A DNA stretch of 64,000 nucleotides from a virus (Duplodnaviria > Caudoviricetes), in the IMG/VR virus record IMGVR_UViG_3300014208_000023, positions 256,001 to 320,000 of that record, one strand, 5' to 3'. Position numbers and translations under genes: made by a program. The notes beneath the pieces were generated by a model. That model had not been told where the DNA came from. It saw only the letters and a program-made list of their open reading frames with translations, and ran no database searches. Positions 38,814 to 57,249 of the stretch are shown piece after piece. The stretch's first letter is position 1. Each line of letters starts with the position of its first letter.

Positions 38814-39572
38814 TTATTCAAACGGAATAAAAAGTGATTTTCTTTTTTGAACGTAAGCGGCGCAATTCTCCCTAAATTTTGCAAGATTATTTTTGTGACA
38901 ATCAGTTTTAAACTCTCTATATGGGCCAACATCTAGCTCTCCCTGTCCAAAATGTATTCCCATTTCAGGAAGATAAGCCATTTCCCATCCTAATAATCTG
39001 GCCCTAAAGAAATAGTCAGCATCCTCTTCTCCATATTTTCCAAATTCTGTTATAAAATAACCTATTTGGTTATGAAGTTCTCTGCTAAAAACTGTGCAAG
39101 CAGTTCCCAGATTTCCTTGGGTTTTGTATTGAAACGTTTTGCCATGTCTGCTACGTATTGGATATTCTACGCCTTCCATATTCAATCCAACTGCAAACTT
39201 TGGATTAACTGAAAGAATATCTAATGATTTAGATAGCCACCCAGGAACGAATTCAATATCATTATCTAGCGTTGATAGGTATTCATCATTATATTTGGCA
39301 GATGCTTTTAGTCCTTGATTGCGACCAATAGCAATTCCCATATTTTCTTTGTTATAAACAAAGTCTTGACCAACACAATTCTTATTATTCCAAATATTTT
39401 CCTTTAGCCAAGGATCATTTTCTAGCCACTCCACCGTTCCATCAGTAGAGCCGTTATCAACTATAATGAGTCTGAATGGCGAATCAGTATTCTCAAAAAG
39501 GCTCTTGAGCATTCTTTTTGTTAAATCCAGCCTATTATAAGTAACAATCATTAATGATGTTGTCATTTGCAC
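38814..39572 (-). CDS. Glycosyltransferase family 2
   Basis: IVTYNR, IVDNGSTDGT, LDNDIE, YGEEDADY. Confidence 0.9.
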   Translation of the reverse strand: MQMTTSLMIVTYNRLDLTKRMLKSLFENTDSPFRLIIVDNGSTDGTVEWLENDPWLKENIWNNKNCVGQDFVYNKENMGIAIGRNQGLKASAKYNDEYLSTLDNDIEFVPGWLSKSLDILSVNPKFAVGLNMEGVEYPIRSRHGKTFQYKTQGNLGTACTVFSRELHNQIGYFITEFGKYGEEDADYFFRARLLGWEMAYLPEMGIHFGQGELDVGPYREFKTDCHKNNLAKFRENCAAYVQKRKSLFIPFE

Positions 39573-39934
39573 ATCTTCTTTATTGTCTTAAGGGTCTCGA
39601 TAAAACTTTCTGCCTGTAGTTTTTTAAGCTCAATTTCTTTGTCTTCTAAAGTCGAAATTCTAACCTTGAGATGGTGTTCGTCTTCGTTTATAATTTGGTC
39701 CGCGCTTAATTCTTCAATTTTAGCACACAATTTATTAAACGTAGTTGTTTTTATGAAATCAACTTTAGATTTGGCAAAATCTTTAATCTCTTTAAGATTA
39801 TTGCTCATAAGAATGAATGTAGCCATTCTTTCTACTTCTGGATATCCTACTTTATTAGGAACAAAAACTCTATATATCGGTTCGGCCACAAGCCCGCAAA
39901 TAAAAGCGGTTGCTATAAATATTAAATCAATCAT
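39563..39934 (-). CDS. Hypothetical protein with N-terminal hydrophobic segment
   Basis: MIDLIFIATAFICGLVA then charged helices. Confidence 0.65.
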   Translation of the reverse strand: MIDLIFIATAFICGLVAEPIYRVFVPNKVGYPEVERMATFILMSNNLKEIKDFAKSKVDFIKTTTFNKLCAKIEELSADQIINEDEHHLKVRISTLEDKEIELKKLQAESFIETLKTIKKMCK

Positions 39935-39954
39935 TGCGCACCATTTATAAAATG

Positions 39955-40875
39955 TTAGTTTGCTCTGTTTTCAACAAACCATTTGTAAGTTTTAGCTATT
40001 CCGTCTTCTAGAGACGTTTCTGCCTTAAGCCCAATTGATTTTAGTTTAGAAACGTCCAACAGTTTTCTTGGTGTTCCGTCAGGCTTGCTGCTATTATATG
40101 TGACTGGCCCTTCGTAACCGACAACTTTCTTTATCAAAATCGCCAAATCGTTAATGGTCATATCCTCACCGACACCAACATTAATGAGATCCGGTATGTC
40201 GTCCATAAACAATGTTTCTTTTACTATATTGGCCAGATCTTCACAATACATAAATTCTCTTCTAGCTTTTCCAGTTCCCCATAATTCTACGGACTCTGAA
40301 CCATTTACTTTAGCTTCGTGAATTTTTCGCAGTAAAGCCGGCAACACATGAGAATCTTCCAGATCAAAACTATCACCGGGCCCATACAAATTGGTGGGCA
40401 TTAATGAGTAGCCGGGAAAATTATATTGCCTACAATATGCTCTTATCATTTGCACTCCGGCAATTTTGGCAACAGCATAAGCGTCATTAGTAGATTCTAA
40501 TGGTCCGGTTAGAAGATATTCTTCTTTAATTGGTTGAGGGGCAAATTTTGGATAGATACACGACGATCCAAGAAAACAAAACTTTTTGCAACCATACTTT
40601 CTAGCTGCCTCTATTGTATTTACGGTTATTTGTAAATTCTGCCTAATAAAATCTCCCTGATAAGTAAAGTTTGCCATAATACCGCCAACCTTTGCGGCGG
40701 CCATTACAACATAATCAGGATGGTATTCTTTGAAAAAATCCTCTACTTGAGCTTGATTGGTTAAATCAAGCTCTGATCTAGATTTAGTAATGATATTATC
40801 ATAGTTAGATTTTTTAAGACTGCGCACTACGGCAGATCCTACCATCCCATTATGGCCCGCTACGTAAATGCTCAT
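39955..40875 (-). CDS. fcl: GDP-L-fucose synthase
   Basis: GHNGMVG, AAAKVGGI, LGSSCIYP (catalytic Cys), YAVAK, SHVLPAL (catalytic His), KPDGTPRK. Confidence 0.95.
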   Translation of the reverse strand: MSIYVAGHNGMVGSAVVRSLKKSNYDNIITKSRSELDLTNQAQVEDFFKEYHPDYVVMAAAKVGGIMANFTYQGDFIRQNLQITVNTIEAARKYGCKKFCFLGSSCIYPKFAPQPIKEEYLLTGPLESTNDAYAVAKIAGVQMIRAYCRQYNFPGYSLMPTNLYGPGDSFDLEDSHVLPALLRKIHEAKVNGSESVELWGTGKARREFMYCEDLANIVKETLFMDDIPDLINVGVGEDMTINDLAILIKKVVGYEGPVTYNSSKPDGTPRKLLDVSKLKSIGLKAETSLEDGIAKTYKWFVENRAN

Positions 40876-41873
40876 TTTTTATTTAGTAAATAAAGTTCTT
40901 TTTCAGCCAATTCCATATCATATTGAATCATCTCATCTACCAGCATTTGGAATGAAAACTTTGGTTCCCAACCCAGCTCTTTTCGTATTTTGGAAGAATC
41001 TCCGCATAGAGCATCCACTTCGCTTGCTCTAAAGTATTTAGGATCTATTTCAACATAGTTTTTGTAATCAAGCCCCAGATGAGAAAATACCATCTCAACA
41101 AACTCTAGAACTGAATGCATCTCTCCGCTAGAGATAACGTAGTCTCCAGGATTTTCAGCAGTTATGATTTTAAACATTCCGGCAGCTACGTCCGATGCAT
41201 GAGACCAATCTCTTTTGGCGTCTAGATTTCCTAGATATAGTTTTTCTTGTAGCCCTAGTTTTATACGAGTTGCCGCTCTAGTTATTTTTCTGGTAACGAA
41301 GGTTTCTCCTCGTCTAGCGCCTTCGTGATTGAAACTGATGGCGTTACTGGCATGCATTCCATAAGCTTCTCTGTAGTTTATGGTGGCGTAGAATCCGGCC
41401 ACCTTTGCCACTCCATACGGAGACCTTGGGTGAAATGGCGTTGTTTCACTCTGTGGTGGATTTTCAGATCCAAACATTTCGCTGCTTGAGGCCGTAAGGA
41501 ATCTGGTTTTGGGACTACATTTCCTAACTGCCTCCAAAACTCTCATTACTCCGGTTCCTGTAACGTCCATGGTATAAACTGGAATATCAAAACTTACCTT
41601 AACGTGAGATTGCGCTCCCATGTTAAATAACAAATCTGGCTTAATATCTCCTATCCAGCTAGATAGTGATGCATAATCAGATAGGTCTCCATATGTTAAT
41701 TCTAATTGCGCATCCGAATGCGGATCTTGATAAAGATGGTCTATTCTCTCCGTATTTAGAGAGCTACTTCGACGCTTTAATCCATGAACCTTATAGCCTT
41801 CTTTTAGAAGAAGTTCGCATAGATATGATCCCGTCTGTCCAGTAACGCCAGTAATGCAAGCAGTTTTAGTCAT
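40872..41873 (-). CDS. gmd: GDP-mannose 4,6-dehydratase
   Basis: GVTGQTGSYL, AQSHVKVSF, ASSSEMFG, PRSPYGVAK, FNHEG, ETFVTRKIT, GNLDAKRDW. Confidence 0.96.
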   Translation of the reverse strand: MTKTACITGVTGQTGSYLCELLLKEGYKVHGLKRRSSSLNTERIDHLYQDPHSDAQLELTYGDLSDYASLSSWIGDIKPDLLFNMGAQSHVKVSFDIPVYTMDVTGTGVMRVLEAVRKCSPKTRFLTASSSEMFGSENPPQSETTPFHPRSPYGVAKVAGFYATINYREAYGMHASNAISFNHEGARRGETFVTRKITRAATRIKLGLQEKLYLGNLDAKRDWSHASDVAAGMFKIITAENPGDYVISSGEMHSVLEFVEMVFSHLGLDYKNYVEIDPKYFRASEVDALCGDSSKIRKELGWEPKFSFQMLVDEMIQYDMELAEKELYLLNKK

Positions 41874-41890
41874 TTAAAGTCCTTAACAAT

Positions 41891-41899
41891 TCTATATCA
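41891..41899 (-). promoter_or_regulatory. TGATATAGA promoter-like motif
   Basis: Intergenic, 17 nt upstream of the gmd ATG. Confidence 0.45.
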
Positions 41900-41928
41900 A
41901 ATGAACAAAAAGTTTTTCAACTAAAATT

Positions 41929-42183
41929 TCATTTTTTACCATATATTTTGGTCGATCCCTGCCCATATAGTTTTTGTGCCTCTCCGGTTTTAACCATATG
42001 ATTTATCTGCTCGTCTATCTGCTGAATAAGATCATTTCTCTGCTGGTTTGCTATGTTAGTAAGGCGAGTGGCATCTGCAATCTCCTTATCTGTAGCGGAT
42101 TTATTCCTCTTAATATCTTCGGCCATCCATATTCTTATATTGGTTACTGATAAGCTGTCAATTAGATTTCCAATAGTAGTCAT
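41929..42183 (-). CDS. DUF4254-like small helical protein
   Basis: TIGNLIDSLSVTNIRIWMAED...NQQRNDLIQQID. Confidence 0.6.
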   Translation of the reverse strand: MTTIGNLIDSLSVTNIRIWMAEDIKRNKSATDKEIADATRLTNIANQQRNDLIQQIDEQINHMVKTGEAQKLYGQGSTKIYGKK

Positions 42184-42977
42184 TGTTTCCTAGTTTTGAA
42201 TTGTTCGATGTCTTCTTGCGTATCATTTAGAAGGTCCCAATACGTATATTCCCAATTTACGGATGGGGTAATCCATTTTGTATTAGTTGGCGGAGTGCTT
42301 GTATCTTCATTAACAAGATCGTGATATTCTAAACCGTTCATTTCGTATAAATCTTGCACGAAGTTTCTAACATTAAACGCCATTCCGGCCCCAACCATAC
42401 AATCTTCGATCTGCCCTATGCTTTTGCTTACGACAAATTTTGTATGAACCATATCTCGCTCGAAGTCCAAATTACCAACACTAATTTTTTCATTATTTAC
42501 GATCGATCTAAATATCTTTCCAAATAGGAAATACTTGCTTCTATACGTTGAATTGAAATAGAATGGGTGAATAAATATAACTTTTTTGTATAGATCGTTT
42601 AATTCACGAAGTTCTTTAATTTTATTTAAGAGAAGTAGTTTAGAAATCGCGTATTCATTTTTAAGATCGAAATTTGGTTCCGTATCTAAAGATATTACTC
42701 CCTCCCCAAACCCTCTCCACAATTCACAACTGGTGTAGCACACTATCTTTTTGGAGTTTTGCAGAAGGGCTTTGATTATCTTTAGTGTGTTCAGATAATT
42801 CGGAGTGATATAGTCAATGTTCTTTTCGTATATTCTCTGCTCGGCAAAAGTAATATATACAGAGTCCCATTGATTTTGTTTTAAATAATTGAAGTCAATA
42901 TTTCTGGAGGAAATTTTGACATAATCATCCGGAAAATACTGGGCTAACTGGGACGAACTTCCTATCACTAAATCCAC
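42180..42977 (-). CDS. Atypical NAD-dependent sugar epimerase/reductase (SDR)
   Basis: Degenerate IGSSSQLA nucleotide loop, YAISK, GNLDFERD. Confidence 0.65.
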   Translation of the reverse strand: MDLVIGSSSQLAQYFPDDYVKISSRNIDFNYLKQNQWDSVYITFAEQRIYEKNIDYITPNYLNTLKIIKALLQNSKKIVCYTSCELWRGFGEGVISLDTEPNFDLKNEYAISKLLLLNKIKELRELNDLYKKVIFIHPFYFNSTYRSKYFLFGKIFRSIVNNEKISVGNLDFERDMVHTKFVVSKSIGQIEDCMVGAGMAFNVRNFVQDLYEMNGLEYHDLVNEDTSTPPTNTKWITPSVNWEYTYWDLLNDTQEDIEQFKTRKQ

Positions 42978-44194
42978 TAGACACCTATAACTTCAAATTT
43001 CGGGCAGGGGACTATAAAACGACCACCTGCTAACAAATAATCCTGTTCTCTGCTGACAAACTCATTTATAAAATGCCAAGGCAATACTAGTAAATAATCT
43101 GGCTTTGCTCTACGCATCTCATCTTCAGAGTAAATCGGTATATTTGTTCCTACCGTTTTAAGCCCAAACTTATAGGGACTACGCTCGGCAATTCCATCGA
43201 TTAACGTGTGGTCAAGTCCAAAATATTGCAATAGGGTATTTCCTTTGGTGGAGGCGCCATAACCCCAAATAGTCTTGCCTTTGGCCTTCTCTTCTTTTAT
43301 AAAGAATACGGTTTTTTCTTTCAAAGATTCTATATCATTGTAAAACGATATCCAGGTTTCAGCTTGGTCTAATTTCAAAGTTTTTTCATATGCCAATAGA
43401 GAATCAACTCTCATATTGCAGATGTCTCTATATGGTTGAGAAGAAAATGTTTTTTCATCACCAGATTGTTTCATCGTATAAATTCTAAATGACCCGCCAT
43501 TAACATCATTAAGCTGGCAGTCCATAACTTTAAACCCATTTTTTTCTAGCAAAGCTTTTAAATTAAAAAGAGAATAGTAATAAATGTGTTCGTGACAGAT
43601 ATTATCAAAAGCCATTTGTTTAATCATTAATGGCGTATAGCTTAATTGAAGAACCCAAATGCCATTATCATCCAACACTTCTCCGATATCACGAATAAAT
43701 GAGTCTGGGTCTTCCAGGTCATAAAACATAGCTATAGAGGTTATTACTTTCGCTTTTAATCCGCCAAACTTACATTTTTTAAATGTATTAGCGCTAAAGT
43801 AATCTTGAATAATTAAATTGGAATGTTTTTGTGACTCGGCTTTATATGAATCATCTACCGGATCTATTCCAACTCTGATTAGGTCAGATGGTAACCACGA
43901 AAGAAGCGTTCCGTCATTACAAGCAATATCTATCCAAAGATCATTTTCTTTAAGTTTTTTTATTTTAAGAATGGAATCAACTATATCTTTTAATTCTTGT
44001 TTCATAGAAGAATTAATGCCGCTACGATACCAATATGTTCCATACATAGTATTTAACGGAGCTGATTTGGAAAGCTTAACGTTTCCATCATCAGTTAGCA
44101 ATAGTTTCATTTCAACCTTATCGCCCCGTGGTGGCTGGTTGTCTTTTATAAAGTCAGAAACATATAGGTCGCCTAAAGTAAAAAGCTCTTTCAT
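42977..44194 (-). CDS. NDP-hexose 3-C-methyltransferase family
   Basis: YWYRSG, DIACNDGTLL, FDNICHEHIYYY, GGS.R, WGYGASTKGNTLLQY, LPWHF, GGRFIVP.P. Confidence 0.88.
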   Translation of the reverse strand: MKELFTLGDLYVSDFIKDNQPPRGDKVEMKLLLTDDGNVKLSKSAPLNTMYGTYWYRSGINSSMKQELKDIVDSILKIKKLKENDLWIDIACNDGTLLSWLPSDLIRVGIDPVDDSYKAESQKHSNLIIQDYFSANTFKKCKFGGLKAKVITSIAMFYDLEDPDSFIRDIGEVLDDNGIWVLQLSYTPLMIKQMAFDNICHEHIYYYSLFNLKALLEKNGFKVMDCQLNDVNGGSFRIYTMKQSGDEKTFSSQPYRDICNMRVDSLLAYEKTLKLDQAETWISFYNDIESLKEKTVFFIKEEKAKGKTIWGYGASTKGNTLLQYFGLDHTLIDGIAERSPYKFGLKTVGTNIPIYSEDEMRRAKPDYLLVLPWHFINEFVSREQDYLLAGGRFIVPCPKFEVIGV

Positions 44195-44206
44195 TATGAT
44201 TTTGAC

Positions 44207-45106
44207 CTAAAATTTGTTTAATGTTTCCGATATTGCCTGCGCGAATCCACTGTTCATTCTATCTAAAGACATATTATCGCAAATAAAGCTATTAACTGAA
44301 CCATTAGCAATAACCGAACTTTGAATCATAGTTCCGCACATTTCTACTCTGGGAACCGGCTTATTGCCCCAGCAACTTACTGCCTGGGTAATTCCGCTAC
44401 ATACTCCAATAAATAAATCGCAATAATTATGAACTAGCGCTAACTGTCTTACGGTAAAACTAGATCCGGAAACAACCCCAGGATCATCAACATATTTTGT
44501 ATGATCCATCATGCTGGCGAAAATAAAATTACATTTTCCAAATTTAGCCCTGCATAGAACCATCATATTTCTAATTACTTCTTCGCTCAAATTAAAATTG
44601 CCCGCCGATCTCAATTGAGACTCTATCATAACGGTTTTTGGGTGAGGTAGTTTAGAGCAAAACTCTCTTGCCATTTCACGCTCTTCATCGGAGAATTTTA
44701 GGTAAGGATGCCATTCCGCCGATGGATCTACGCCAAAAACCATTCTTGGTATATTTGAGTAATTGACATCATTAAGGGCATTATTTGGAAGCATTGCCCA
44801 TGGAGCTGGAAAATAACCATTATGCAGGTCTTTCATAGTATCATAATCCTGCCTTCTATTTAATAGAAGTTGCCCGTTTTTATCCATTAAATTTCTAAAG
44901 TCTTCTTGAGGCCAATCTCTTATTTCAGAGATGGCGTCATTATGCTTTAGCATATCCATGTACGTGGCTTTTTCTGGGGAAGTATTGAGAAACCAAACGA
45001 TTTCTTTACCAGGCCATAGGATATCTTTATATTTCAAAACGCAAGTGCATAAAGCTATGTCACCGTGCTGCCCATGAACAAAAATTCCAATCTTATTATT
45101 TACCAC
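44207..45106 (-). CDS. GT9-like (GT-B) glycosyltransferase
   Basis: HGQHGDIAL...LK...PGKEIVW; CDLFIGVCSGITQ. Confidence 0.6.
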   Translation of the reverse strand: MVNNKIGIFVHGQHGDIALCTCVLKYKDILWPGKEIVWFLNTSPEKATYMDMLKHNDAISEIRDWPQEDFRNLMDKNGQLLLNRRQDYDTMKDLHNGYFPAPWAMLPNNALNDVNYSNIPRMVFGVDPSAEWHPYLKFSDEEREMAREFCSKLPHPKTVMIESQLRSAGNFNLSEEVIRNMMVLCRAKFGKCNFIFASMMDHTKYVDDPGVVSGSSFTVRQLALVHNYCDLFIGVCSGITQAVSCWGNKPVPRVEMCGTMIQSSVIANGSVNSFICDNMSLDRMNSGFAQAISETLNKF

Positions 45107-45155
45107 ACTTGTCCTTATGTCAATACTTTGTTATTGGTATAGATAAGGGACGCAA

Positions 45156-45788
45156 ATGACATATTACTCTCAAGCATGGCAAGACGAATTCGTTATAAAT
45201 CTTTTGAACTTTAAAAAGAATGGGCACTTCATAGACATAGGAAGCACCGATGGTATGAATCAAAGTAATTCATATTTTCTTGAAAAAGAAATGGGGTGGA
45301 AAGGAACTTGCGTTGAGCTTGGAATCGGCTATACCGAGCACTATAAAAACAATAGAAGCTGCGTATTCTTAAATGAAGACGCTACCAAAATAGATTATAA
45401 ATCTTTATTTGATAAAAATCAATATCCATCACGAATAGATTATTTGTCTTTGGATATTGATGAGAGCAGTATGCTTGGTCTTGCAAAATTACCGTTTGAT
45501 GACTATAAGTTTAGCGTTATAACTATAGAGCATGACTCGTATAGATTTGGTGATATACTGAAAAATCAAGAGAGAGAATTTTTAAGGCATCACAATTATA
45601 CTCCATTATTTTTAGACGTTCTAGTTCCGCTTGGCTGTGGAATGGGACCAAATCTTTCATTTGAAGACTGGTGGGTAGATGCGTCTGTTTTTAATATGGA
45701 AAAATTAAACAAATTAAGTGCCACAAGAATGTATCCAGACGAAATAGTTGCTATGATAAAAAATAAGAAAGATATATACGCCATATAG
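45156..45788 (+). CDS. FkbM-like (Methyltransf_21) methyltransferase
   Basis: SQAWQDEF, FIDIGSTDG..QSN, IDYLSLDID, VITIEHD, FEDWWV. Confidence 0.85.
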   Translation: MTYYSQAWQDEFVINLLNFKKNGHFIDIGSTDGMNQSNSYFLEKEMGWKGTCVELGIGYTEHYKNNRSCVFLNEDATKIDYKSLFDKNQYPSRIDYLSLDIDESSMLGLAKLPFDDYKFSVITIEHDSYRFGDILKNQEREFLRHHNYTPLFLDVLVPLGCGMGPNLSFEDWWVDASVFNMEKLNKLSATRMYPDEIVAMIKNKKDIYAI

Positions 45789-50552: not shown

Positions 50553-50567
50553 ATATCCTAAATATAA

Positions 50568-51413
50568 TTATACTGCTTCAGAAGAGGTGTGAAAAAGCCG
50601 AATACCTATTTGCGTTTTGTTTTCTAGAAAATACATCTGCACATCAAACCCATTACTAAATGGCTTAATAGTATTATACAAAGTATATGGCGAAAACCAA
50701 TACTTATGATCTGGATGAACCATTTCTAACGAAAACTCATCTGAACAAAAAATTTCCGCAACTGCCATACACGGAACAGTGAATAAATATTCTTTAGCTT
50801 TTACTGAAAAAATATCTTTTAAAAATAAATCTACATTTGGAACGTGCTCCATTACTTCAGGAACTATGACAATATCATATTCTTTATCAACATCCTTATA
50901 TGACGTAAAGTATGTTCCTGGGCAGGCCTGTTTTAGCTTATTTGTGGTTTCAACATCAATATCCAGACCGTCTATTCGCGTATTTATTCTTTTTTTAAAT
51001 TCAGAATAAGCTATTTCTGCAAGAGAAGATGCAAGCTCTGCCTTGGCGAGCGCTTCATTTCCAACGGCCTGTTCTGGCGTTACCTTCGCTCTTTCTTTAG
51101 TTCTTTCTATTTTTGCCTTATCTACTTTCTCTTTAAGAACTATTTCTTCTTCGGTCTTCATGTCCTTAAGTTTAGATAAGAATATATGCAAATTAGATTC
51201 CACATTAAAAACCATAGTGTCAGCGCATCCTACATGTAGGACTGTTTTGCCCTGACATAAATTTCCAATAAATTCAAATCTAGAATGTCTGATATTTTTC
51301 AGATGCATTTTTTGTATATAAAAATTATCAGTAGCCTCGTATGTTTTACGGGCAATTTTAACTGGTGCTTCTGGTGCTTCGATAACTTCTAGCTGCATAT
51401 TTTCTCCGGTCAT
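50568..51413 (-). CDS. Class I SAM methyltransferase with ~60-aa helical insertion
   Basis: VLHVGCAD, GLDID, YDIVIVPEVMEHV, FTVP. Confidence 0.8.
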   Translation of the reverse strand: MTGENMQLEVIEAPEAPVKIARKTYEATDNFYIQKMHLKNIRHSRFEFIGNLCQGKTVLHVGCADTMVFNVESNLHIFLSKLKDMKTEEEIVLKEKVDKAKIERTKERAKVTPEQAVGNEALAKAELASSLAEIAYSEFKKRINTRIDGLDIDVETTNKLKQACPGTYFTSYKDVDKEYDIVIVPEVMEHVPNVDLFLKDIFSVKAKEYLFTVPCMAVAEIFCSDEFSLEMVHPDHKYWFSPYTLYNTIKPFSNGFDVQMYFLENKTQIGIRLFHTSSEAV

Positions 51414-52129
51414 ATTTTAATCCATTCTGGTGGTAAAAGGTCTTTTGTGTTATGTTGTAGTGCCGGCCCAAACCAGGTACTTGGTGCCAGAACTTTTTTA
51501 TTTTCGTTTTTATTTAGCCAAGCTCCCCACCAGCTAAAGCTACTGTTGCATATAATATTGCTTTCGCATGTTTTAGCCATCAAAGCTAAATCTATTGCCG
51601 GCCCATTTCCCTCAGAATATTCGTATTGATTTCCTACGAAATTTCTTTTGGCCCAGTCCATATCATCAGATAGAATCAAAAATTTCTTGCACCCACTCAT
51701 TTCCATTGCTTTTGAATAATAATCCATACTCATAAGTGGATGACAATTTTGAAAATTAAGGTAATCACCTCTTCTTATATGAAGAGAACACAATCCCTCT
51801 TCTCTTTCAAACTTATAAATTGGAGTTAATGCTTTAGCTATTTCTTCTTTATTATTTTCAAAGTATTTCCAGGATTGGAAATATCCTATTAAATCCACCG
51901 AATTAGACGCTGGGATTTCATCATAATGAAATGCTTTTTCCTGATAAGTTTTAGATACGGCTATATTTGATGAAAAACAATTATGCAAATTAAAGTTAGG
52001 TTCATATTGCCAAGGTGGAAACTGATAATCCGTATTGTTTTTAATAGCAGTAGATATAGTGGTAGCTATCTGGAATAAACAATTCCCTAACCTACCCATC
52101 TTTCCTAGCTGTGAAAACGTAACTGTCAT
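51410..52129 (-). CDS. GT11 alpha-1,2-fucosyl/colitosyltransferase
   Basis: GRLGNCLFQ, GYFQSWKYF, HIRRGDY, ILSDD, NSSFSWWGAWL. Confidence 0.93.
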   Translation of the reverse strand: MTVTFSQLGKMGRLGNCLFQIATTISTAIKNNTDYQFPPWQYEPNFNLHNCFSSNIAVSKTYQEKAFHYDEIPASNSVDLIGYFQSWKYFENNKEEIAKALTPIYKFEREEGLCSLHIRRGDYLNFQNCHPLMSMDYYSKAMEMSGCKKFLILSDDMDWAKRNFVGNQYEYSEGNGPAIDLALMAKTCESNIICNSSFSWWGAWLNKNENKKVLAPSTWFGPALQHNTKDLLPPEWIKI

Positions 52130-54459
52130 TGCCTTATTTCGTGGTGGTTTTTATCAAGTAGAAGTATTTTTGGCGCAAATGTTTTTGGAAGCCACTTCTT
52201 CTTATAAGACTCAATATTTGATTGAGGGTAGTGATAGCTTGGAGTCAAAATTACTGTTGGCTCGTTGTCTAGAAAATACCTATTTATTGCGGTCTCGTCG
52301 TGCCAAACTGGAATCACGTTGTTTGCCACATCTCTATCTATAACATCCTTACACCATTTAGCAAGCTCCATATACTTGTCTCTTCTACCTCCACTAAATC
52401 CTCCGCCAAAATAGTTCTTATATTTTTTTGGATACGAATCAGAAATGAATAAACGAGAGGCTGGATTTGTTTCAAATGGACCCTTACCATTAGTAAATCC
52501 ACAATGCTGAACGCCAACCAAATCGCCTATAATCTCTGGCCCAATATTATCTACGAATAAACAATCAACATCTACATAATATAGATAATCTTCATTATTC
52601 AGAATATGCTCATTGTTTGCGAAATGGGCAAATCGATCCATACTGGCAAATGGAAACGGTTTATGCTGAATTGGAATATGAATTATTCTACGATCCGATT
52701 TTGGAATATGAACTGTTTTTCGCTCAGCATCTAATGACGTTATGTCGCTAAAAACATAATATGTTACATCAAAATTTTCATTTAGAAAATGTTTGTCGGC
52801 AGAATCTATTATTCCTTGCAAAAATCTATCATATTTGCCCGTGGCTATAAGCATTAGTCCAACCGAAGTTTTTTTACTTGGCGGAGATACTGGAGAATAC
52901 CGAGGCATATTTCTAATGTGCCTATCAAGATCTTGTTGCATCTTAACATTTACTTTATGATCATTAATTGGGTTTTCCATATTATAGACATAAAGAATAT
53001 CTGAAATGTATTTTTGATGGTGTTTTGCCATTTCCATCATAGGAAACATTATGGCGAAATCCCATGTCATCTTGAAAAATTCACCGTTAATCGATAAATC
53101 TTCTTTTCTTATTATTTTGAATAGCCAAGCATAGAACGTTCTTAAGTGGGAGGCTGCCCAAGGCGTTTTTCTAAACGCTAGATTTTCTATAACTTCTGGT
53201 CGATAGGCGCCGGCAATACCTGAGCCGCCATTTGGGTGGTTTGTATATTGTCCGTAAGACATCCAAATATCACTTTCATTGTAGTGACGCTTAAGTCTAT
53301 TCAAAACCTCTCCATCGGGAAGCCAGTCATCACCATCAAGCGTTAGGACAATTTCATCATCAGCACAACTATGAATCATATTATATAGATTTGCCAACGC
53401 TCCTTGTCTGGAGTTATTCTTTATTACGGTGCATTTATGTTGGTGCGGTGAGTTTTTCACCGCAGCATTTACCAAATTGAATGTTTGATCTGGAGAGCAA
53501 TCATCTACAAATATGACTCTGAACTTATCATAATTTTGATTTAGTGCCGACAATATATTCTTTACGCACCATCTTTCATTATTGTAGCTTGGAATAACAA
53601 TAACGAACCTTTTTTCTTTAGAATCCAATGACCACGCTCGCGGAACATTAACTAGGGCCGTTTTCATTGGCAAACTAATTGATGTTGGATCATTAAGTGT
53701 TAGTGGCTTGCCAATAGTTAAGCCTGGCCTTCTTGAATTAATAAAGCGCTCACTATACTGAACATCTCCGCTTCTACGTGCGGCATCTGACTCCAGCTTA
53801 AGAATATGGTGCCTATCTCTGCGTATAAACCAAAGCCTTCTATTACCAAATTTTCTTCCGGTATCATTAACCGACCAGTCATATCTAAATTGGCCGTGAT
53901 TTAATTTAGTCTCATCAACCCTTTTGAATTTTGCATTCAATGATGAAAGCTTGTTTTGCAGATTTTTTTCTGAAACAATGCTTCCTTCTCCACTGAAGGA
54001 ATGATCGTCTATATCTTTAGATTCATAAATAGGAACTAATATATTTGGATTAGAAGAATCTAATATTTCAGTTTCTAGAACTATTCTTTCAGAAACTGAA
54101 AGCAACGATTCTATATGTTTTTCATATGTCTTAAGGTGACATAGAAGATCTATGCTAATGGCCATATCAAAAGAAAAAGGCTCGAATGGAAAATCTTTTT
54201 CCAAATCGAGCTGCATTGTTTTTATATATGGGAACTTTTTTCTAATAAGATTTAGGTTAGATTCTCTTGCATCTACGCAAGTCATCTCCGCCCCTAACCT
54301 TGCAAATATATTGGCAAATTCTCCGTTACCGGCACCCAAATCAAGGATCTTTTTTCCTTTGAAAAAGGTCTGTCCAAAATAATCAATTATAGTTTTGCTT
54401 AACTTGAAATTTCTCTCTTTTTGCTCGGCTGGAGTCATAACTCTAAATATAACTGCCAT
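52126..54459 (-). CDS. Three-domain fusion: SAM methyltransferase + GT2 + GT6 (ABO-like)
   Basis: ILDLGAGNG; IPSYNN/VDDCS/LDGDDW; IATGKY, VDVD, FGGGFSGG, WHDETAIN. Confidence 0.88.
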   Translation of the reverse strand: MAVIFRVMTPAEQKERNFKLSKTIIDYFGQTFFKGKKILDLGAGNGEFANIFARLGAEMTCVDARESNLNLIRKKFPYIKTMQLDLEKDFPFEPFSFDMAISIDLLCHLKTYEKHIESLLSVSERIVLETEILDSSNPNILVPIYESKDIDDHSFSGEGSIVSEKNLQNKLSSLNAKFKRVDETKLNHGQFRYDWSVNDTGRKFGNRRLWFIRRDRHHILKLESDAARRSGDVQYSERFINSRRPGLTIGKPLTLNDPTSISLPMKTALVNVPRAWSLDSKEKRFVIVIPSYNNERWCVKNILSALNQNYDKFRVIFVDDCSPDQTFNLVNAAVKNSPHQHKCTVIKNNSRQGALANLYNMIHSCADDEIVLTLDGDDWLPDGEVLNRLKRHYNESDIWMSYGQYTNHPNGGSGIAGAYRPEVIENLAFRKTPWAASHLRTFYAWLFKIIRKEDLSINGEFFKMTWDFAIMFPMMEMAKHHQKYISDILYVYNMENPINDHKVNVKMQQDLDRHIRNMPRYSPVSPPSKKTSVGLMLIATGKYDRFLQGIIDSADKHFLNENFDVTYYVFSDITSLDAERKTVHIPKSDRRIIHIPIQHKPFPFASMDRFAHFANNEHILNNEDYLYYVDVDCLFVDNIGPEIIGDLVGVQHCGFTNGKGPFETNPASRLFISDSYPKKYKNYFGGGFSGGRRDKYMELAKWCKDVIDRDVANNVIPVWHDETAINRYFLDNEPTVILTPSYHYPQSNIESYKKKWLPKTFAPKILLLDKNHHEIRQ

Positions 54460-54504
54460 TATAAGAGTTTTGCAACATATTAATCATCTCGTATTTATAT
54501 ACAA

Positions 54505-57249
54505 ATGGCCACAAATTATCCTACCCATATTGACGACACCTCTAGCTTGCCAGTTGTGGCTGATAACGTACATAGAGTAGATTCTGATGTTATTAATCGA
54601 TTACGGGCCGCAATTATAGCCGTTGAATCTGAATTGGGCACAAAACCAAGTGGAATATATGGAACCGTAACTAATCGGCTTGATGGGTTTGAAACTCTAA
54701 TTAATTCGATCATTAGCGCCGGCGTTGCTAGCAGCTTTACTGCTGCCGGCGATTTAAGCGGGAACTCTACTAGCCAAGTAGTTATTGGCTTACGTGGAGT
54801 TTCAGTAAGCTCTACGGCACCAACAAATGGTCAAATATTATCATATGATGGATATTCTTGGAAAGCTAAGGGGCCACAAACTCCAGTTGTTACACAGGAA
54901 GCTTGGTTCATAGATCCAGTTAGCGGCAACGATTCCAATAGCGGACTTACTTCTGGAACGGCTCTAAAAACTCTTGCGGAAATGTATTCTCGCTGGGGTC
55001 CGGCTCCAAAGCTATTAGCATCTGTTTCTGGATTTATTACCGTAACACTAATGAGTGCTCCGGGCATAAATGACCCCATTATTTTGAGCGGAGATCTTGG
55101 TCCAGACACGAATTTAATGTATAAAGGAGCGGCATCTACCGTTAGATCTGGAACTTTTAGTGCGGTAACTGCACTTAATTCAGCAACAAATCAAGCGTGG
55201 GAAGTTGATGATAGCGCTAGAGATTGGACTACGGATCTAAATAAGCGCATTAAAAATACGACTGCCGGAGCAAATCTTGGACAAGTAGCCTGGGTAGCTA
55301 AAAGCATAGGTGGAACATCTGCCAGAATATCGCAGCCGGCATTTATTGATGCGGCCACAATACATGGATATACCGGGCCAACAGTTGGAGTATTCTCCAC
55401 TAGCGACACTTATATAGTAGAAGATATTACGGAGGCTTATTTAGCAAGCGTTATTCGCGTAGGCCGTTTCGAAGGCAATGAATTAGTTCACCCTGGTAGG
55501 GTATTTTTTCAGGATATTTATTTTAAAAATTCAGTTGGCGGAACACTAATTCAGCAGTGTGCTTCTTTAGTATTTTTGGGTTGTCGTTTTGATAACTCAT
55601 ATCTTGAGCATGCATTAGCTCCTGCATTTATGAATTGTAATTTGGGTAATGGTATTGGCATCTTTGAATCTGAAATGTCAACAATTACAGGAATGATTGC
55701 GGGAGATATGAATATAGCTTCTGGCAGTAAAGTATATATGCAAAATTGGCTGGTTCAGGGCGCGACCATTTATTTATTTGGTGGAGATGTAGTTCTTACT
55801 GGAACTTTAGGAATTTTTGATTCTGCCGCAGACGCGATCAACGTTGGATATGCTAGTTACGGCAAAGGGTCTCTTGATGCTGGGCTAGCTTTGTTTGGAA
55901 GTGGCAATGCTGGGCATGGAGTTAATATTGGCCCACTAGGATCATTAGCTTATGCTACAACCCCTACAATTACTGGAACTGCCGGCAACGTTGTTATTGA
56001 TGGAACATCGCTAACATGGAGAACGGCACCGCAAATTTTTAGTGGAACAAACAATTCTACGAGCACCTTTTCAGTAGGTCCAAACCCCGCTCTTACTGGC
56101 GATTGTTTGCGCCTTGGACCATCCATAGCTAATGCTGGCGTATATAACAATGTAATAACCACTCGCATCAATGGTGCAGATGCTACCGTCGTCAGAATTC
56201 ATGACGGCGCCTCTTACATCATGCTGGGAGATACCGGCTATTACATGACGCTACAAGGCTATAATAACGTGTTCGCTTCCAATGCGTTAGGCATTCACGA
56301 GTTCATAATTGGAGCTGCTGACGCAATGCAACTTAATGCTAACGGCGTTCAGATTGGGCCAGGCGCTTTTGATCTTGGCGGTGGAACTGGTGTAATCGGA
56401 ATTGATGACGCGGCCGTTGTTCCAACAACCAATCCAACAGGCGGAGTAGTTCTTTATTCTGAAACGGGGGCACTGAAATTCAGAAACCCAGCAGGCACAA
56501 TAACAACACTTGGTTCAGGCGGATCTCCAGGCGGTTCTGATACGTATATTCAATTTAATGATACTTCTACTTTTGGTGGCGATGCTGGACTTACCTATAA
56601 TAAAACCACAAACGTTCTTTCATTAACCGACGCTATTGCTATTGGAGCAATACCTGCATCTGCGGGCTCACTGCGATTAGCAACCAGTTCTATTATAAAC
56701 TATCGCAATGCATCCAATACTGGAGACGTTCAAGCACTCAACTGTGATGGTTCGTTTGTGTATGTCGGAGATGTTAGTCGCAATGATTCTGGATTATTGC
56801 TATATTCTGGTGGTAGTGTTGCCATTAATGCAACTGGTGACGTTGTGCTTGGGTATGGCACGCCAAGATTAACTGCCACTACTACCAATATTCTTTCTAC
56901 ATTTCCACTTATTGGTGATAGCGCCAACACTTCGCCATACGGTGTTCATGGAGGAGTAATTGTTACTCCAGCAATAGACGCTGCCGTAACACTAGTGGCA
57001 GCAGAATATAACTTCGATTGGATTCAAGTTGATACCGGCGCTTGGGCGACTGGCCCATTTGGGGTTATTTTTCCAACTCCAGCCACAAAAGCCGCGGGTT
57101 TTTATAAAACTGTTTTTAACAATTCGACGCAAACAATAACGGTGCAAAATGGCGGAGTAGCAACCAGAACTCTTACTACTGGACTTGGCCAGAGATTTTG
57201 GTTTGATGATGGCGGCGCGTTTTTTGCTGGGGCAACATTTACTCCATAA
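54505..57249 (+). CDS. Tail-fibre/tailspike-like virion protein
   Basis: G/T/S/A-rich; GDLSG...APTNGQILSYDG..W, FIDPVSGNDSNSG...KTL and PGGSDTYIQFND fibre motifs; probable beta-helix core. Confidence 0.75.
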   Translation: MATNYPTHIDDTSSLPVVADNVHRVDSDVINRLRAAIIAVESELGTKPSGIYGTVTNRLDGFETLINSIISAGVASSFTAAGDLSGNSTSQVVIGLRGVSVSSTAPTNGQILSYDGYSWKAKGPQTPVVTQEAWFIDPVSGNDSNSGLTSGTALKTLAEMYSRWGPAPKLLASVSGFITVTLMSAPGINDPIILSGDLGPDTNLMYKGAASTVRSGTFSAVTALNSATNQAWEVDDSARDWTTDLNKRIKNTTAGANLGQVAWVAKSIGGTSARISQPAFIDAATIHGYTGPTVGVFSTSDTYIVEDITEAYLASVIRVGRFEGNELVHPGRVFFQDIYFKNSVGGTLIQQCASLVFLGCRFDNSYLEHALAPAFMNCNLGNGIGIFESEMSTITGMIAGDMNIASGSKVYMQNWLVQGATIYLFGGDVVLTGTLGIFDSAADAINVGYASYGKGSLDAGLALFGSGNAGHGVNIGPLGSLAYATTPTITGTAGNVVIDGTSLTWRTAPQIFSGTNNSTSTFSVGPNPALTGDCLRLGPSIANAGVYNNVITTRINGADATVVRIHDGASYIMLGDTGYYMTLQGYNNVFASNALGIHEFIIGAADAMQLNANGVQIGPGAFDLGGGTGVIGIDDAAVVPTTNPTGGVVLYSETGALKFRNPAGTITTLGSGGSPGGSDTYIQFNDTSTFGGDAGLTYNKTTNVLSLTDAIAIGAIPASAGSLRLATSSIINYRNASNTGDVQALNCDGSFVYVGDVSRNDSGLLLYSGGSVAINATGDVVLGYGTPRLTATTTNILSTFPLIGDSANTSPYGVHGGVIVTPAIDAAVTLVAAEYNFDWIQVDTGAWATGPFGVIFPTPATKAAGFYKTVFNNSTQTITVQNGGVATRTLTTGLGQRFWFDDGGAFFAGATFTP

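What the first reader, a model, noticed from the sequence alone, without database searches (positions are those of the whole stretch)
38814..57249. Candidate self-contained phage virion-glycosylation system beside a tail fibre
Seen: a ~16 kb block with nucleotide-sugar enzymes (Gmd, Fcl, ColD, two extra SDRs, C-methyltransferase), up to eight GT domains (GT2 x2, GT6, GT11, GT9-like, three unclassified) and four methyltransferase domains. It shares a 45-bp divergent spacer with a 914-aa S/T-rich tail-fibre-like gene. Seen: no Wzx/Wzy, GtrAB, ABC exporter or undecaprenyl priming transferase; only one small ORF has a hydrophobic N-terminus. Known: O-antigen conversion needs membrane components, whereas chloroviruses and mimiviruses glycosylate capsids/fibrils with soluble self-encoded enzymes, and some mycobacteriophages glycosylate virions. 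Inference: this phage builds a complex methylated deoxy-sugar glycan in the cytoplasm and puts it on virion proteins (possibly this fibre), on a giant-virus scale not well described for tailed phages.
Basis: partly seen in the sequence, partly recalled or inferred. Interest (0 to 1): 0.9.

Follow-up and report, generated by a model that had tools for sequence, protein, structure and literature searches.

The report
Megaphage sugar-coat gene cluster beside fibre
A 428-kb groundwater megaphage carries a real 16-kb set of soluble enzymes that make fucose-, colitose- and methyl-branched sugars and join them into a glycan; comparison with related phages suggests the glycan goes onto virus-particle proteins, but this is unproven and the neighbouring tail-fibre gene is only an accidental neighbour.

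Summary
Window 38814-54459 is a tightly packed, almost wholly minus-strand operon. It encodes Gmd, Fcl, a true ColD 3-dehydratase with a ColC-like reductase, a C-methyltransferase, and three more methyltransferase domains. It also encodes GT2 (twice), GT6, GT11, a GT9-like enzyme, one GT-A-fold enzyme and two probable phage glycosyltransferases. No cluster enzyme has a membrane helix. The complete 428-kb genome has no priming transferase, Wzy/ligase, multi-pass membrane protein or tyrosine integrase.

The 914-aa gene is a mosaic tail fibre. Its N-terminal domain recurs in a paralogue encoded beside the tail sheath. Its C-terminal tip recurs in the tail module of an unrelated phage.

The cluster-fibre adjacency is not conserved in any relative examined. 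In three related megaphages the same cluster follows baseplate-region genes on the same strand with overlapping stop/start codons. In at least three others it diverges from a Thg1 gene. In small complete phages, homologues of two cluster genes sit between the capsid and tail genes.

I favour virion glycosylation (about 0.5) over host-envelope remodelling (about 0.3). Large glycan clusters in jumbo phages and virion glycosylation in mycobacteriophages are both already described, so this is a new variant, not a new kind. Earlier scan notes on this genome flagged two further glycosylation modules; I verified both.

The parts
38814..39572 (-). GT2 glycosyltransferase (252 aa), last gene of the operon
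   Evidence: Pfam Glycos_transf_2 69.8 bits; 49-62% identical homologues at the head of the cluster in relatives
39563..39934 (-). 123-aa ORF with hydrophobic N-terminal helix and charged coiled-coil tail; function unknown
   Evidence: Translation; no Pfam or NCBIfam match
39955..40875 (-). GDP-L-fucose synthase (Fcl/GMER)
   Evidence: NF047922 435 bits, cut-off 500; GxxGxxG and YxxxK present; the gene at this position in relatives is only about 40% identical
40872..41873 (-). GDP-mannose 4,6-dehydratase (Gmd)
   Evidence: TIGR01472 451.5 bits, above the 415 cut-off
41929..42183 (-). DUF4254 small protein, always beside the C-methyltransferase module
   Evidence: Pfam PF14063 42 bits; conserved at 71-81% in relatives
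42180..42977 (-). Degenerate SDR-like protein (265 aa), inferred 4-ketoreductase for the C-methyl sugar
   Evidence: Weak GDP_Man_Dehyd/Gmd match, E 9e-5; YAISK present, no GxxGxxG; the role is inference
42977..44194 (-). NDP-hexose C-methyltransferase (TylC3-type)
   Evidence: Pfam Methyltransf_14 155.6 bits and Methyltransf_23
44207..45106 (-). GT9-like GT-B glycosyltransferase (299 aa)
   Evidence: Profile of 34 family members hits PDB 3TOV (GT9) at E 6.3e-9; Atlas neighbours are phage clusters, some carrying Glyco_transf_9
45156..45788 (+). FkbM-family methyltransferase
   Evidence: Pfam Methyltransf_21 25.3 bits, cut-off 22.7
45808..46623 (+). Conserved 271-aa protein with an SRDADS (DxD-like) motif; probable GT-A-type transferase
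   Evidence: AF2 pLDDT 64; weak glycogenin/GT8-like matches, E about 1e-3. A bacterial homologue lies in a GT4/GT2/ABC-transporter glycan locus. A homologue lies in the capsid-tail operon of a 53.6-kb phage
46620..47393 (-). GT-A-fold glycosyltransferase (257 aa), no Pfam family
   Evidence: AF2 pLDDT 86.9, pTM 0.87; the top 50 Foldseek PDB matches listed (of 430 at E <= 0.001) are all GT-A enzymes such as SpsA, LARGE1, BoGT6a and GT8, prob 1.00
47390..48289 (-). Fcl-like SDR, inferred GDP-L-colitose synthase (ColC)
   Evidence: NF047922 167 bits; overlaps ColD by 4 nt; GxxGxxG and YxxxK present
48286..49488 (-). GDP-4-keto-6-deoxy-D-mannose 3-dehydratase (ColD)
   Evidence: Best PDB hits are E. 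coli ColD 2GMS/3GR9 at E 9e-85, ahead of E1 and perosamine synthases; the catalytic His ('SHH') is kept in place of the aminotransferase Lys
49485..50552 (-). 355-aa member of a phage glycosyltransferase-like family; best conserved gene of the cluster
   Evidence: Atlas score 0.98 to viral 'glycosyltransferase family protein' clusters; 678 homologues, 70-89% identical in related megaphages; no PDB sequence match
50568..51413 (-). 281-aa protein with a weak methyltransferase signature
   Evidence: Methyltransf_23 E 0.0045, below cut-off
51410..52129 (-). GT11-type fucosyltransferase (239 aa)
   Evidence: Pfam Glyco_transf_11 72.3 bits; HIRRGD GDP-fucose motif at residue 117
52126..54459 (-). 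Three-domain enzyme: SAM methyltransferase, GT2 and GT6 (777 aa); first gene of the operon
   Evidence: Pfam Methyltransf_11/25, Glycos_transf_2 67 bits, Glyco_transf_6 118.6 bits; NF041524 155 bits; DVD motif; the GT2-GT6 core is conserved in relatives with a variable N-terminus
54460..54504 (.). 45-bp divergent spacer between the cluster head and the fibre gene
   Evidence: Sequence; no promoter or terminator signal above shuffled expectation; junction absent from all relatives examined
54505..57249 (+). 914-aa mosaic tail fibre/tailspike-like receptor-binding protein
   Evidence: N-terminal 130 aa match own paralogues of 495 aa (E 2e-27) and 1088 aa, the latter beside the tail sheath gene (E 9e-9). 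The N-terminus also heads 629- to 1974-aa ORFs in relatives. Residues 711-914 are 54% identical to a fibre in another phage's tail module. The middle is beta-helix-like by Atlas only
30753..32620 (-). Outlying sugar genes: RmlD-like reductase (30753-31619) and RmlA-like nucleotidyltransferase (31886-32620)
   Evidence: Pfam and NCBIfam; separated from the cluster by SET, Thg1, UDG and two AAA genes

Best explanation
The block is a cytoplasmic glycan assembly line made entirely of soluble enzymes.

Proposed sugar pathways:
- Gmd converts GDP-mannose, probably from the host pool, to GDP-4-keto-6-deoxymannose.
- Fcl turns this into GDP-L-fucose.
- ColD plus the ColC-like reductase turn it into GDP-L-colitose.
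- The C-methyltransferase plus the degenerate SDR probably make a C-methyl-branched 6-deoxyhexose.

Proposed assembly: six to eight transferases (GT2 twice, GT11 fucosyltransferase, GT6 alpha-1,3 hexosyltransferase, GT9-like, one GT-A-fold enzyme and two phage-specific enzymes) build an oligosaccharide. Three or four methyltransferases cap it with methyl ethers.

Proposed acceptor: I think the glycan is most likely attached late in infection to virion proteins (fibres, baseplate periphery, possibly the collagen-like fibre). It would work together with the phage's two other glycosyltransferase modules, which sit inside the tail and collagen-fibre gene blocks.

The 914-aa neighbour is a mosaic receptor-binding fibre brought beside the cluster by rearrangement. 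It is not a dedicated acceptor.

Shown: enzyme identities, solubility, absence of export machinery, and synteny with structural genes in relatives. Inferred: the glycan's composition, the timing, and above all the acceptor.
For: 1. Enzyme calls and catalytic motifs.
2. No hydrophobic segment in any cluster enzyme. No ORF with more than four such segments in the 428-kb genome. No Bac_transf, Glycos_transf_4 or Wzy_C match.
3. In three related megaphages (L007, L008, L047) the same cluster lies on the same strand directly after homologues of the large proteins encoded next to the baseplate wedge and after a GT4 gene. Most junctions are 1- to 4-nt overlaps. In two of the three (L007, L008) it is followed by the RmlB-like gene of the baseplate-adjacent module. 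This implies co-transcription with tail genes.
4. In a complete 53.6-kb phage (G004/L010), homologues of 45808-46623 and 49485-50552, with further GT and MT genes, lie between the major capsid gene and downstream (presumed tail) genes in one operon. A second contig of the same type (L050) has GT2 and the 49485-50552 homologue downstream of its capsid gene.
5. The phage has a second glycan module wrapped around a 1005-aa collagen-repeat fibre gene, and a third beside the baseplate genes.
6. No tyrosine integrase was found, so long-term serotype conversion of a lysogen is less likely.
7. Gene content varies between relatives: the colitose branch is lost in two (L008, L048), and amino-sugar modules appear in L006 (in place of the C-methyl module) and in L048. 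This is expected for an exposed, selected surface glycan.
Against: - No direct evidence for any acceptor.
- At least three relatives (L003/L006, L004, L048) place the cluster next to Thg1 and other non-structural genes.
- Linkage of receptor-binding genes with host-glycan-modifying genes is also the classic pattern of seroconverting phages.
- Bacterial homologues of these enzyme families (GT2, GT6, GT9, GT11, and the 45808-46623 family) normally act on lipid-linked cell-envelope glycans. They are often soluble or peripheral, so lack of membrane helices does not exclude a lipid acceptor supplied by the host.
- No recognisable protein-directed initiating transferase was identified.
- The proteins preceding the cluster in relatives are assigned to the virion only by position and domain content (LamG, dockerin-like); no PHROG or PDB match was found.
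Confidence: 0.5

Rival explanations
1. Host-envelope remodelling. The soluble phage transferases act at the inner face of the host membrane on undecaprenyl-phosphate-linked or lipid A-core acceptors that host enzymes prime, flip and ligate. This changes the infected cell's O-antigen or capsule, for example to block superinfection or to stop progeny adsorbing to debris. This is the published reading of jumbo cyanophage clusters.
For: - Published interpretation of the P-SSM2-type clusters (PMC7824862; PMC12801897).
- The GT6 domain is 32% identical to P-SSM2's.
- GT9, GT11, GT6 and colitose are typical of LPS.
- A bacterial homologue of 45808-46623 sits in a GT/ABC-transporter envelope-glycan locus.
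- The cluster lies next to a tailspike-like receptor-binding gene, as in P22- and epsilon15-type converting phages (own knowledge).
Against: - No priming transferase, flippase, polymerase, ligase or Gtr-like protein in 428 kb.
- No tyrosine integrase.
- Operon fusion with tail genes in three relatives, and capsid-tail placement of homologues in small phages, point to late expression, when changing the cell surface has little time to act.
- A whole new oligosaccharide would have to be accepted by host Wzx/Wzy/WaaL.
Confidence: 0.3
2. The 914-aa fibre itself is the specific acceptor, and the shared 45-bp spacer co-regulates fibre and enzymes.
For: Physical adjacency in this genome; the fibre has somewhat more S+T (19%) than the genome mean.
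Against: - The adjacency is absent in every relative examined.
- The fibre gene is GC-richer than its surroundings (0.40-0.41 against about 0.35), is mosaic and has an HNH endonuclease gene nearby. This is consistent with recent insertion.
- The cluster is conserved without this fibre.
- Several other proteins in the genome are richer in S/T.
Confidence: 0.08
3. Another acceptor: phage DNA (hypermodified bases carrying glycans), a secreted or free oligosaccharide, a glycolipid or a small molecule.
For: - Phage GTs can build multi-sugar DNA modifications (Pyle et al. 2024, cited in PMC12619734).
- A UDG-family gene and a thymidylate-synthase homologue exist in the genome.
Against: - The ThyA homologue is a full-length, high-scoring thymidylate synthase 200 kb away.
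- GT11 and GT6 extend glycans, not bases.
- Six to eight transferases plus deoxy-sugar and methylation branches are far beyond known DNA glycans.
- No natural-product scaffold genes are nearby.
Confidence: 0.07

Closest known systems
Jumbo cyanophage 'LPS / cell-wall modification' clusters (Prochlorococcus phage P-SSM2, S-SCSM1, S-SCSM2R)
   Same: Large lytic myovirus-type genomes carry 15 or more clustered genes for NDP-sugar dehydratases/epimerases plus many soluble GTs, including GT6, GT11 and GT2. Content varies between relatives. There is no export machinery and the acceptor is unknown. The GT6 domain is 32% identical.
   Different: Here there is a true ColD/ColC colitose branch, a C-methyl-sugar branch, an MT-GT2-GT6 fusion and phage-specific GT families. 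The cluster is fused to tail operons in some relatives, and the genome has two further modules, one wrapped around a collagen fibre. The habitat is groundwater. The published reading for cyanophages is host-surface modification.
Mycobacteriophage virion glycosylation (Che8 and other cluster F1 phages; Freeman et al. 2023, as cited in PMC11256854 and PMC12619734)
   Same: Phage-encoded soluble glycosyltransferases are proposed here, and shown there, to put O-glycans on virion proteins without phage export machinery.
   Different: Those phages have two or so GT genes near the right genome end, use host sugar nucleotides, and glycosylate C-termini of capsid and tail-tube subunits of siphoviruses. 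Here there are six to eight GTs plus dedicated sugar-nucleotide synthesis in a 428-kb myovirus-like phage, and glycosylation is not demonstrated.
Giant-virus autonomous glycosylation (chlorovirus PBCV-1 A064R-type multidomain GT/MT enzymes; Mimivirus fibril glycan clusters) - comparison from own knowledge
   Same: Self-encoded Gmd/GMER-type sugar-nucleotide synthesis, soluble multidomain GT-GT-MT enzymes, methylated deoxy sugars, clade-variable clusters, and collagen-like or fibril proteins as likely acceptors.
   Different: Those are eukaryotic viruses with experimentally solved glycans. Here there is no sequence relationship beyond shared enzyme superfamilies, and the bacterial host cytoplasm is the site of synthesis.
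Bacterial O-antigen loci with colitose or blood-group-like units (E. coli O55/O111 ColD/ColC; E. coli O86 GT6+GT11) - comparison from own knowledge apart from the ColD match
   Same: Same enzyme set for GDP-fucose and GDP-colitose, and the GT11+GT6 pair. ColD is about E 1e-84 to the E. coli O55 enzyme.
   Different: Bacterial loci always work with Wzx/Wzy or ABC transporters, a priming transferase and a ligase. None is encoded by this phage.
Seroconverting temperate phages (P22/SfV Gtr systems, epsilon15) - from own knowledge
   Same: Glycan-modifying genes sit next to a tailspike-like receptor-binding gene.
   Different: Those use one to three membrane proteins acting on periplasmic O-antigen in lysogens. 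Here there are no membrane proteins and no tyrosine integrase, and a whole biosynthetic pathway is present.

Membership tests
GDP-L-fucose pathway (Gmd + Fcl) | Gmd equivalog match above the curated cut-off | tested here: met
   TIGR01472 451.5 bits against a 415 cut-off
GDP-L-fucose pathway (Gmd + Fcl) | Fcl/GMER equivalog match with SDR cofactor and catalytic motifs | tested here: inconclusive
   NF047922 435 bits, below the 500 cut-off; GxxGxxG and YxxxK present. Very likely Fcl, but not at equivalog level
GDP-L-colitose pathway (ColD + ColC) | ColD-type PMP-dependent 3-dehydratase: closest to ColD rather than aminotransferases, with active-site His replacing Lys | tested here: met
   Top PDB hits 2GMS/3GR9 ColD at E 9e-85, against perosamine synthase at 7e-48; 'SHH' aligns with ColD His188, which is N in the 3B8X mutant
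GDP-L-colitose pathway (ColD + ColC) | Adjacent Fcl-like epimerase/reductase (ColC) | tested here: inconclusive
   Fcl-like SDR at 167 bits overlapping ColD by 4 nt; substrate specificity cannot be read from sequence
CAZy GT11 fucosyltransferase | Pfam Glyco_transf_11 above cut-off and the HxRRxD GDP-fucose motif | tested here: met
   72.3 bits against a 23.9 cut-off; HIRRGD at residue 117. The protein is short (239 aa) and matches only profile positions 107-296
CAZy GT6 | Pfam Glyco_transf_6 above cut-off; DXD (or NXN) donor-binding motif | tested here: met
   118.6 bits against a 25 cut-off; NF041524 at 155 bits, below its 250 cut-off; DVD at residue 630
CAZy GT9 | Sequence-profile relationship to heptosyltransferase-type GT-B enzymes | tested here: inconclusive
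   Family profile hits 3TOV (GT9) at E 6e-9, but WaaC/WaaF only at E 0.1-0.4; no Pfam hit. GT9-like rather than a member
Wzx/Wzy- or ABC-dependent O-antigen/capsule locus | Initiating phosphoglycosyltransferase (Bac_transf or WecA/Glycos_transf_4) | tested here: not met
   No match in six-frame search of the whole 428-kb genome; controls positive
Wzx/Wzy- or ABC-dependent O-antigen/capsule locus | Polymerase/ligase (Wzy_C) and multi-pass flippase or ABC permease | tested here: not met
   No Wzy_C match; no ORF with more than four hydrophobic segments. The few membrane proteins checked are a subtilase, a fatty-acid hydroxylase and unknowns. Wzx and ABC2 HMMs were not run individually
Seroconverting temperate phage module | Integrase/lysogeny functions and membrane Gtr-type or polymerase-inhibitor proteins | tested here: not met
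   No Phage_integrase match; no GtrA-like multi-TM ORF. Serine recombinases were not searched
Phage virion glycosylation (mycobacteriophage type) | Phage-encoded soluble GTs | tested here: met
Phage virion glycosylation (mycobacteriophage type) | Glycan demonstrably attached to capsid or tail proteins | not testable with these tools
   Needs purified virions. The only indirect evidence is synteny with structural genes
Jumbo-phage glycan cluster (P-SSM2 type) | Clustered NDP-sugar SDR enzymes plus several GT families in a phage genome over 200 kb, without export genes | tested here: met
   GT6 homology to P-SSM2; description in PMC7824862
Tail fibre / tailspike | N-terminal anchor domain shared with other fibre genes of the tail module | tested here: met
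   Residues 1-116 are 46% identical to a 495-aa paralogue. Residues 3-59 match the 1088-aa protein encoded beside the tail sheath. The same N-terminus heads 629- to 1974-aa ORFs in relatives
Tail fibre / tailspike | Exchangeable C-terminal receptor-binding tip found in other phages' tail modules | tested here: met
   Residues 711-914 are 54% identical to the C-terminus of P0002, which follows a sheath-initiator/baseplate block
Tail fibre / tailspike | Right-handed beta-helix (depolymerase-type) central domain | tested here: inconclusive
   Only Atlas embedding (0.92 to Pect-lyase_RHGA_epim) and TM 0.3-0.45 on a pLDDT 0.62 model; no Pfam, PHROG or PDB sequence match

The most novel reading that the evidence does not exclude
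A widespread family of 400-480-kb megaphages from groundwater, wastewater and freshwater coats its virions with a strain-variable, methylated deoxy-sugar glycan. The glycan would contain fucose, colitose, a C-methyl hexose and a GT11+GT6 blood-group-like motif. It would be built entirely in the host cytoplasm by three phage-encoded modules with roughly 13-17 GT domains, which is giant-virus scale. The gene pair 45808-46623 / 49485-50552 would then mark a general, previously unrecognised virion-glycosylation system that also sits inside the capsid-tail operons of ordinary 50-kb phages.
Probability: 0.4. Interest if true: 0.8.

Novelty: new variant of a known kind. Interest (0 to 1): 0.62.

Why it matters
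If the glycan is on the virion, tailed phages would join chloroviruses and mimiviruses in making complex, self-encoded glycan coats. Such a coat could affect particle stability, adhesion to biofilm or sediment matrices, evasion of host or grazer recognition, and antigenicity.

The synteny found here gives a practical handle. Two uncharacterised phage GT families sit inside structural operons of both small and huge phages. They could be used to find cultivable phages in which virion glycosylation can be tested directly.

The result also bears on the long-standing, untested assumption that jumbo-phage 'LPS genes' modify the host surface.

Separately, the cluster is a compact source of enzymes for rare sugars (GDP-colitose, a C-methyl 6-deoxyhexose) and of a natural MT-GT2-GT6 fusion.

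Tried and rejected
- Megablast of the 20-kb region against 50,697 phage records found nothing. tblastn with 49485-50552 also found nothing.
- The search for related loci with the fusion protein found nothing in IMG/VR.
- Loci from the look-up of encoding contigs could not be used as genome handles. Whole-record searches for the fibre were therefore limited to four IMG/VR relatives.
- The sigma-70 promoter and terminator scan of 38.5-58 kb gave counts equal to shuffled expectation.
- Genome-wide k-mer enrichment in upstream regions found a GATATAT element. It precedes genes of all classes and is absent from the cluster head, so it gave no timing information. The TATAAATA in the spacer is not enriched genome-wide.
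- The 49485-50552 family profile has no PDB sequence match.
- The AF2 model of 45808-46623 was too poor for a firm fold call.
- The large proteins that precede the cluster in relatives have no PHROG or PDB match.
- No RNA-seq run holds the sequence, so expression timing could not be checked.
- DNA glycosylation was considered and set aside: the thymidylate-synthase homologue looks canonical and is distant.
- A bacterial O-antigen locus was rejected: the record is a complete DTR phage with PolIII alpha, SbcCD, tail sheath and baseplate genes.
- Host identity was not resolved. Shine-Dalgarno use is low (28% of ORFs). The nearest GenBank records are unannotated 634-642-kb uncultured phages.
- No complex prediction was run, because no specific enzyme-acceptor pair is claimed.

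Full report
**Context.** The window is bases 256,001-320,000 of a 428,320-bp IMG/VR virus record with direct terminal repeats, rated 100% complete. It encodes a PolIII-alpha polymerase, SbcCD, topoisomerase I, a trigger-factor homologue and an FtsK-like ATPase. Elsewhere the genome has a tail sheath and a baseplate wedge/J protein. It is therefore a megaphage, not a bacterial locus. Reads identical to the cluster occur in groundwater metagenomes. Partial matches occur in wastewater, sludge, freshwater and soil. Coding density with table 11 is 94%.

**The observation.**
- Gmd scores above its equivalog cut-off. Fcl is just below its own cut-off.
- The DegT-family protein is a genuine ColD. Its best solved relatives are E. 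coli ColD structures (E 9e-85), well ahead of the CDP-sugar E1 dehydrase and perosamine synthases. It keeps the active-site histidine that distinguishes ColD from aminotransferases.
- The next gene overlaps ColD by 4 nt. It is an Fcl-like SDR, as ColC is.
- A TylC3-type C-methyltransferase, a small DUF4254 protein and a degenerate SDR form a second branch.
- Pfam supports four GT domains: GT2 twice, GT6 and GT11. The GT11 protein has the HxRRxD motif and the GT6 domain has a DVD motif.
- Of the ORFs without a Pfam match:
  - 44207-45106 is GT9-like (family profile to PDB 3TOV, E 6e-9).
  - 46620-47393 folds confidently as GT-A.
  - 49485-50552 belongs to a phage family auto-named glycosyltransferase, by embedding similarity only.
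  - 45808-46623 is at best weakly GT8-like.
- Three methyltransferase domains are firm and one is weak.
- Genes overlap by 1-10 nt or are separated by at most 55 nt. The spacer to the fibre gene is 45 bp.
- No cluster enzyme has a hydrophobic segment.

**Extending the negative evidence.** Across the whole genome no ORF has more than four Kyte-Doolittle segments. Six-frame HMM searches found no Bac_transf, no WecA/MraY-type transferase, no Wzy/O-antigen-ligase domain and no tyrosine integrase, with positive controls in reference genomes. The few membrane proteins checked are a subtilase, a fatty-acid hydroxylase and unknowns.

The system is not fully self-contained. No clear mannose-1-phosphate guanylyltransferase is present. 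The nearby RmlA-like nucleotidyltransferase scores best as a thymidylyltransferase.

**The 914-aa gene.** It has no Pfam, PHROG or PDB sequence match, but three lines identify it as a mosaic receptor-binding fibre.
- Its first ~116 residues are 46% identical to a 495-aa paralogue. Residues 3-59 match the N-terminus of a 1088-aa protein encoded directly beside the tail sheath gene. The same N-terminal domain heads 629- to 1974-aa ORFs in related megaphages.
- Its last 200 residues are 54% identical to the C-terminus of a 606-aa protein. That protein follows a sheath-initiator/baseplate block on an unrelated groundwater phage contig.
- Its middle resembles right-handed beta-helix tailspikes, but only by Atlas embedding and a low-confidence model.
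S+T is 19%, about 1.7 sd above the genome mean, and several other proteins are richer. The gene is GC-richer than its surroundings and has an HNH endonuclease gene nearby.

**Relatives.** The 355-aa protein has hundreds of homologues. Those at 70-89% identity lie on contigs of up to 477 kb. I examined nine contexts.

The core gene set is conserved at 50-80% identity. It comprises GT2, the GT2-GT6 fusion, GT11, the 355-aa protein, the GT-A enzyme, the 271-aa protein, FkbM, the GT9-like enzyme, the C-MT module and Gmd. The surroundings differ:
- In L003/L006, L004 and L048 the cluster head diverges from Thg1 and other non-structural genes.
- In L007, L008 and L047 the cluster lies on the same strand immediately after homologues of the phage's 1061-aa LamG protein and/or its 1056-aa dockerin-motif protein, and after a GT4. 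In this genome those genes follow the baseplate wedge gene. Most junctions in the three relatives are 1- to 4-nt overlaps. In L007 and L008 the cluster is followed by the RmlB-like gene of the baseplate-adjacent module.
- None of the relatives has a fibre gene where this phage has one.

Content also varies. L008 and L048 lack ColD and ColC. L006 and L048 carry an extra aminotransferase/acetyltransferase module, which in L006 stands in place of the C-methyl-sugar module. The Fcl-position gene is only about 40% identical, while Gmd is 65-79% identical.

More distant homologues of both the 271-aa and 355-aa proteins lie in a complete 53.6-kb phage. There they sit with GT2, another GT-MT fusion and two further methyltransferases between the major capsid gene and downstream (presumed tail) genes, all on one strand. 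A second contig of the same type has GT2 and the 355-aa homologue downstream of its capsid gene.

**The rest of this genome.** Following earlier scan notes, I verified two more glycan modules:
- GT4, two GT2 genes and an RmlB-like dehydratase directly after the baseplate-region genes, with a plus-strand GH5 cellulase island.
- A block around a 1005-aa collagen-repeat fibre gene. It holds a GT2+GT4 fusion, two methyltransferases, two weak GT4-like genes, a second C-methyltransferase and a 4,6-dehydratase-like SDR.

**Interpretation.** The chemistry is reasonably secure at family level. GDP-fucose and GDP-colitose are made from GDP-4-keto-6-deoxymannose, with probably a C-methyl-branched deoxyhexose as well. 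These are assembled by six to eight transferases and O-methylated. The adjacent GT11 and GT6 suggest a Fuc-alpha-1,2 / alpha-1,3-hexose motif like the one made by the same family pair in E. coli O86. That comparison is from my own knowledge and is an inference.

The acceptor is the open question. I favour virion proteins for three reasons:
- The cluster is fused into tail operons in three relatives.
- Two of its phage-specific genes sit inside the capsid-tail operon of small phages.
- This phage wraps another GT module around a collagen-like fibre.
Late co-expression suits particle decoration and suits surface conversion poorly. No tyrosine integrase was found.

The main rival is the published reading of cyanophage clusters: host LPS or capsule remodelling using host priming and export enzymes (PMC7824862, PMC12801897). 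It cannot be excluded. The enzyme families involved normally act on lipid-linked glycans and need no membrane helices. At least three relatives place the cluster among non-structural genes. Receptor-binding genes and glycan-conversion genes are also neighbours in classic converting phages.

DNA or small-molecule acceptors are unlikely.

**Novelty.** Large GT/NDP-sugar clusters in jumbo phages have been known since P-SSM2 and were reviewed in 2021. A phage with 13 GTs has been reported. Virion glycosylation is established in mycobacteriophages.

The new elements are:
- the particular chemistry (a ColD/ColC colitose branch, two C-methyltransferases, an MT-GT2-GT6 fusion);
- the occurrence in a widespread groundwater and freshwater megaphage family;
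- the three-module organisation, with roughly 13-17 GT domains;
- the synteny evidence tying the cluster and two uncharacterised GT families to structural operons.

This is a new variant of a known kind, of moderate to high interest.

Noticed in passing
genome-wide; e.g. window 38735-38813 (upstream of the AAA gene at 37535-38734), and upstream of 34430-35209 and 31886-32620: A GATATAT (often TGATATAT) element lies in the 80 nt upstream of 38 start codons, in about half of them only 12-16 nt from the start. TGATATAT is about 11-fold enriched in upstream intergenic DNA. The spacing suggests a -10-like promoter giving nearly leaderless mRNAs. Shine-Dalgarno-like motifs precede only 28% of ORFs.
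   Followed up: partly
window 32617-33090 and 34430-35209: A SET-domain protein and a Thg1-like tRNA-His guanylyltransferase homologue lie just downstream of the cluster. The Thg1 gene is conserved (44-48% identity) beside the glycan cluster in several relatives.
   Followed up: no
window 57839-58297; L047:8537-9370: An HNH endonuclease gene lies close to the fibre gene in this phage. A GIY-YIG/NUMOD3 homing-endonuclease gene is inserted inside the glycan cluster of relative L047. Such mobile endonucleases may drive the rearrangements seen.
   Followed up: no
genome 130543-132954 (+), outside the window: An 803-aa GH5 cellulase-family protein is encoded on a plus-strand island inside the baseplate-adjacent glycosyltransferase module. 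It may be a virion-associated depolymerase.
   Followed up: partly
genome 191377-206304 (-), outside the window: A second glycan module surrounds a 1005-aa collagen-repeat fibre gene. It holds a GT2+GT4 fusion (911 aa), two SAM methyltransferases, two weak GT4-like genes, a second TylC3-type C-methyltransferase with a zinc-ribbon domain, and a 4,6-dehydratase-like SDR.
   Followed up: yes
genome 241854-248963 (+), outside the window: Several consecutive ORFs of about 340-510 aa are the most S/T-rich proteins in the genome (22-26%). The first shares the fibre N-terminal domain. This looks like an array of short fibre paralogues.
   Followed up: partly
window 39955-40875 against L004, L007, L047 and L048: The gene at the Fcl position is only 37-41% identical between this phage and its relatives, while the adjacent Gmd is 65-79% identical. 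This suggests the reductase was replaced, and possibly a different 6-deoxyhexose product in relatives.
   Followed up: no
window 5440-6798; 25286-26281: The phage encodes a trigger-factor homologue (Trigger_N/C plus FKBP) and an FtsK/SpoIIIE-like ATPase.
   Followed up: no
L049:2599-7875 and 10001-11095: In a more distant phage (146-kb contig) a 48%-identical homologue of the 355-aa GT-like protein stands alone, about 2 kb from a 1741-aa ORF (two minus-strand ORFs lie between) and next to a class I tRNA-synthetase gene, without the rest of the cluster.
   Followed up: no
genome 339576-340073 and 383881-385605, outside the window: Among the few membrane proteins of the phage are a fatty-acid-hydroxylase-family protein and a subtilase with hydrophobic segments.
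   Followed up: no
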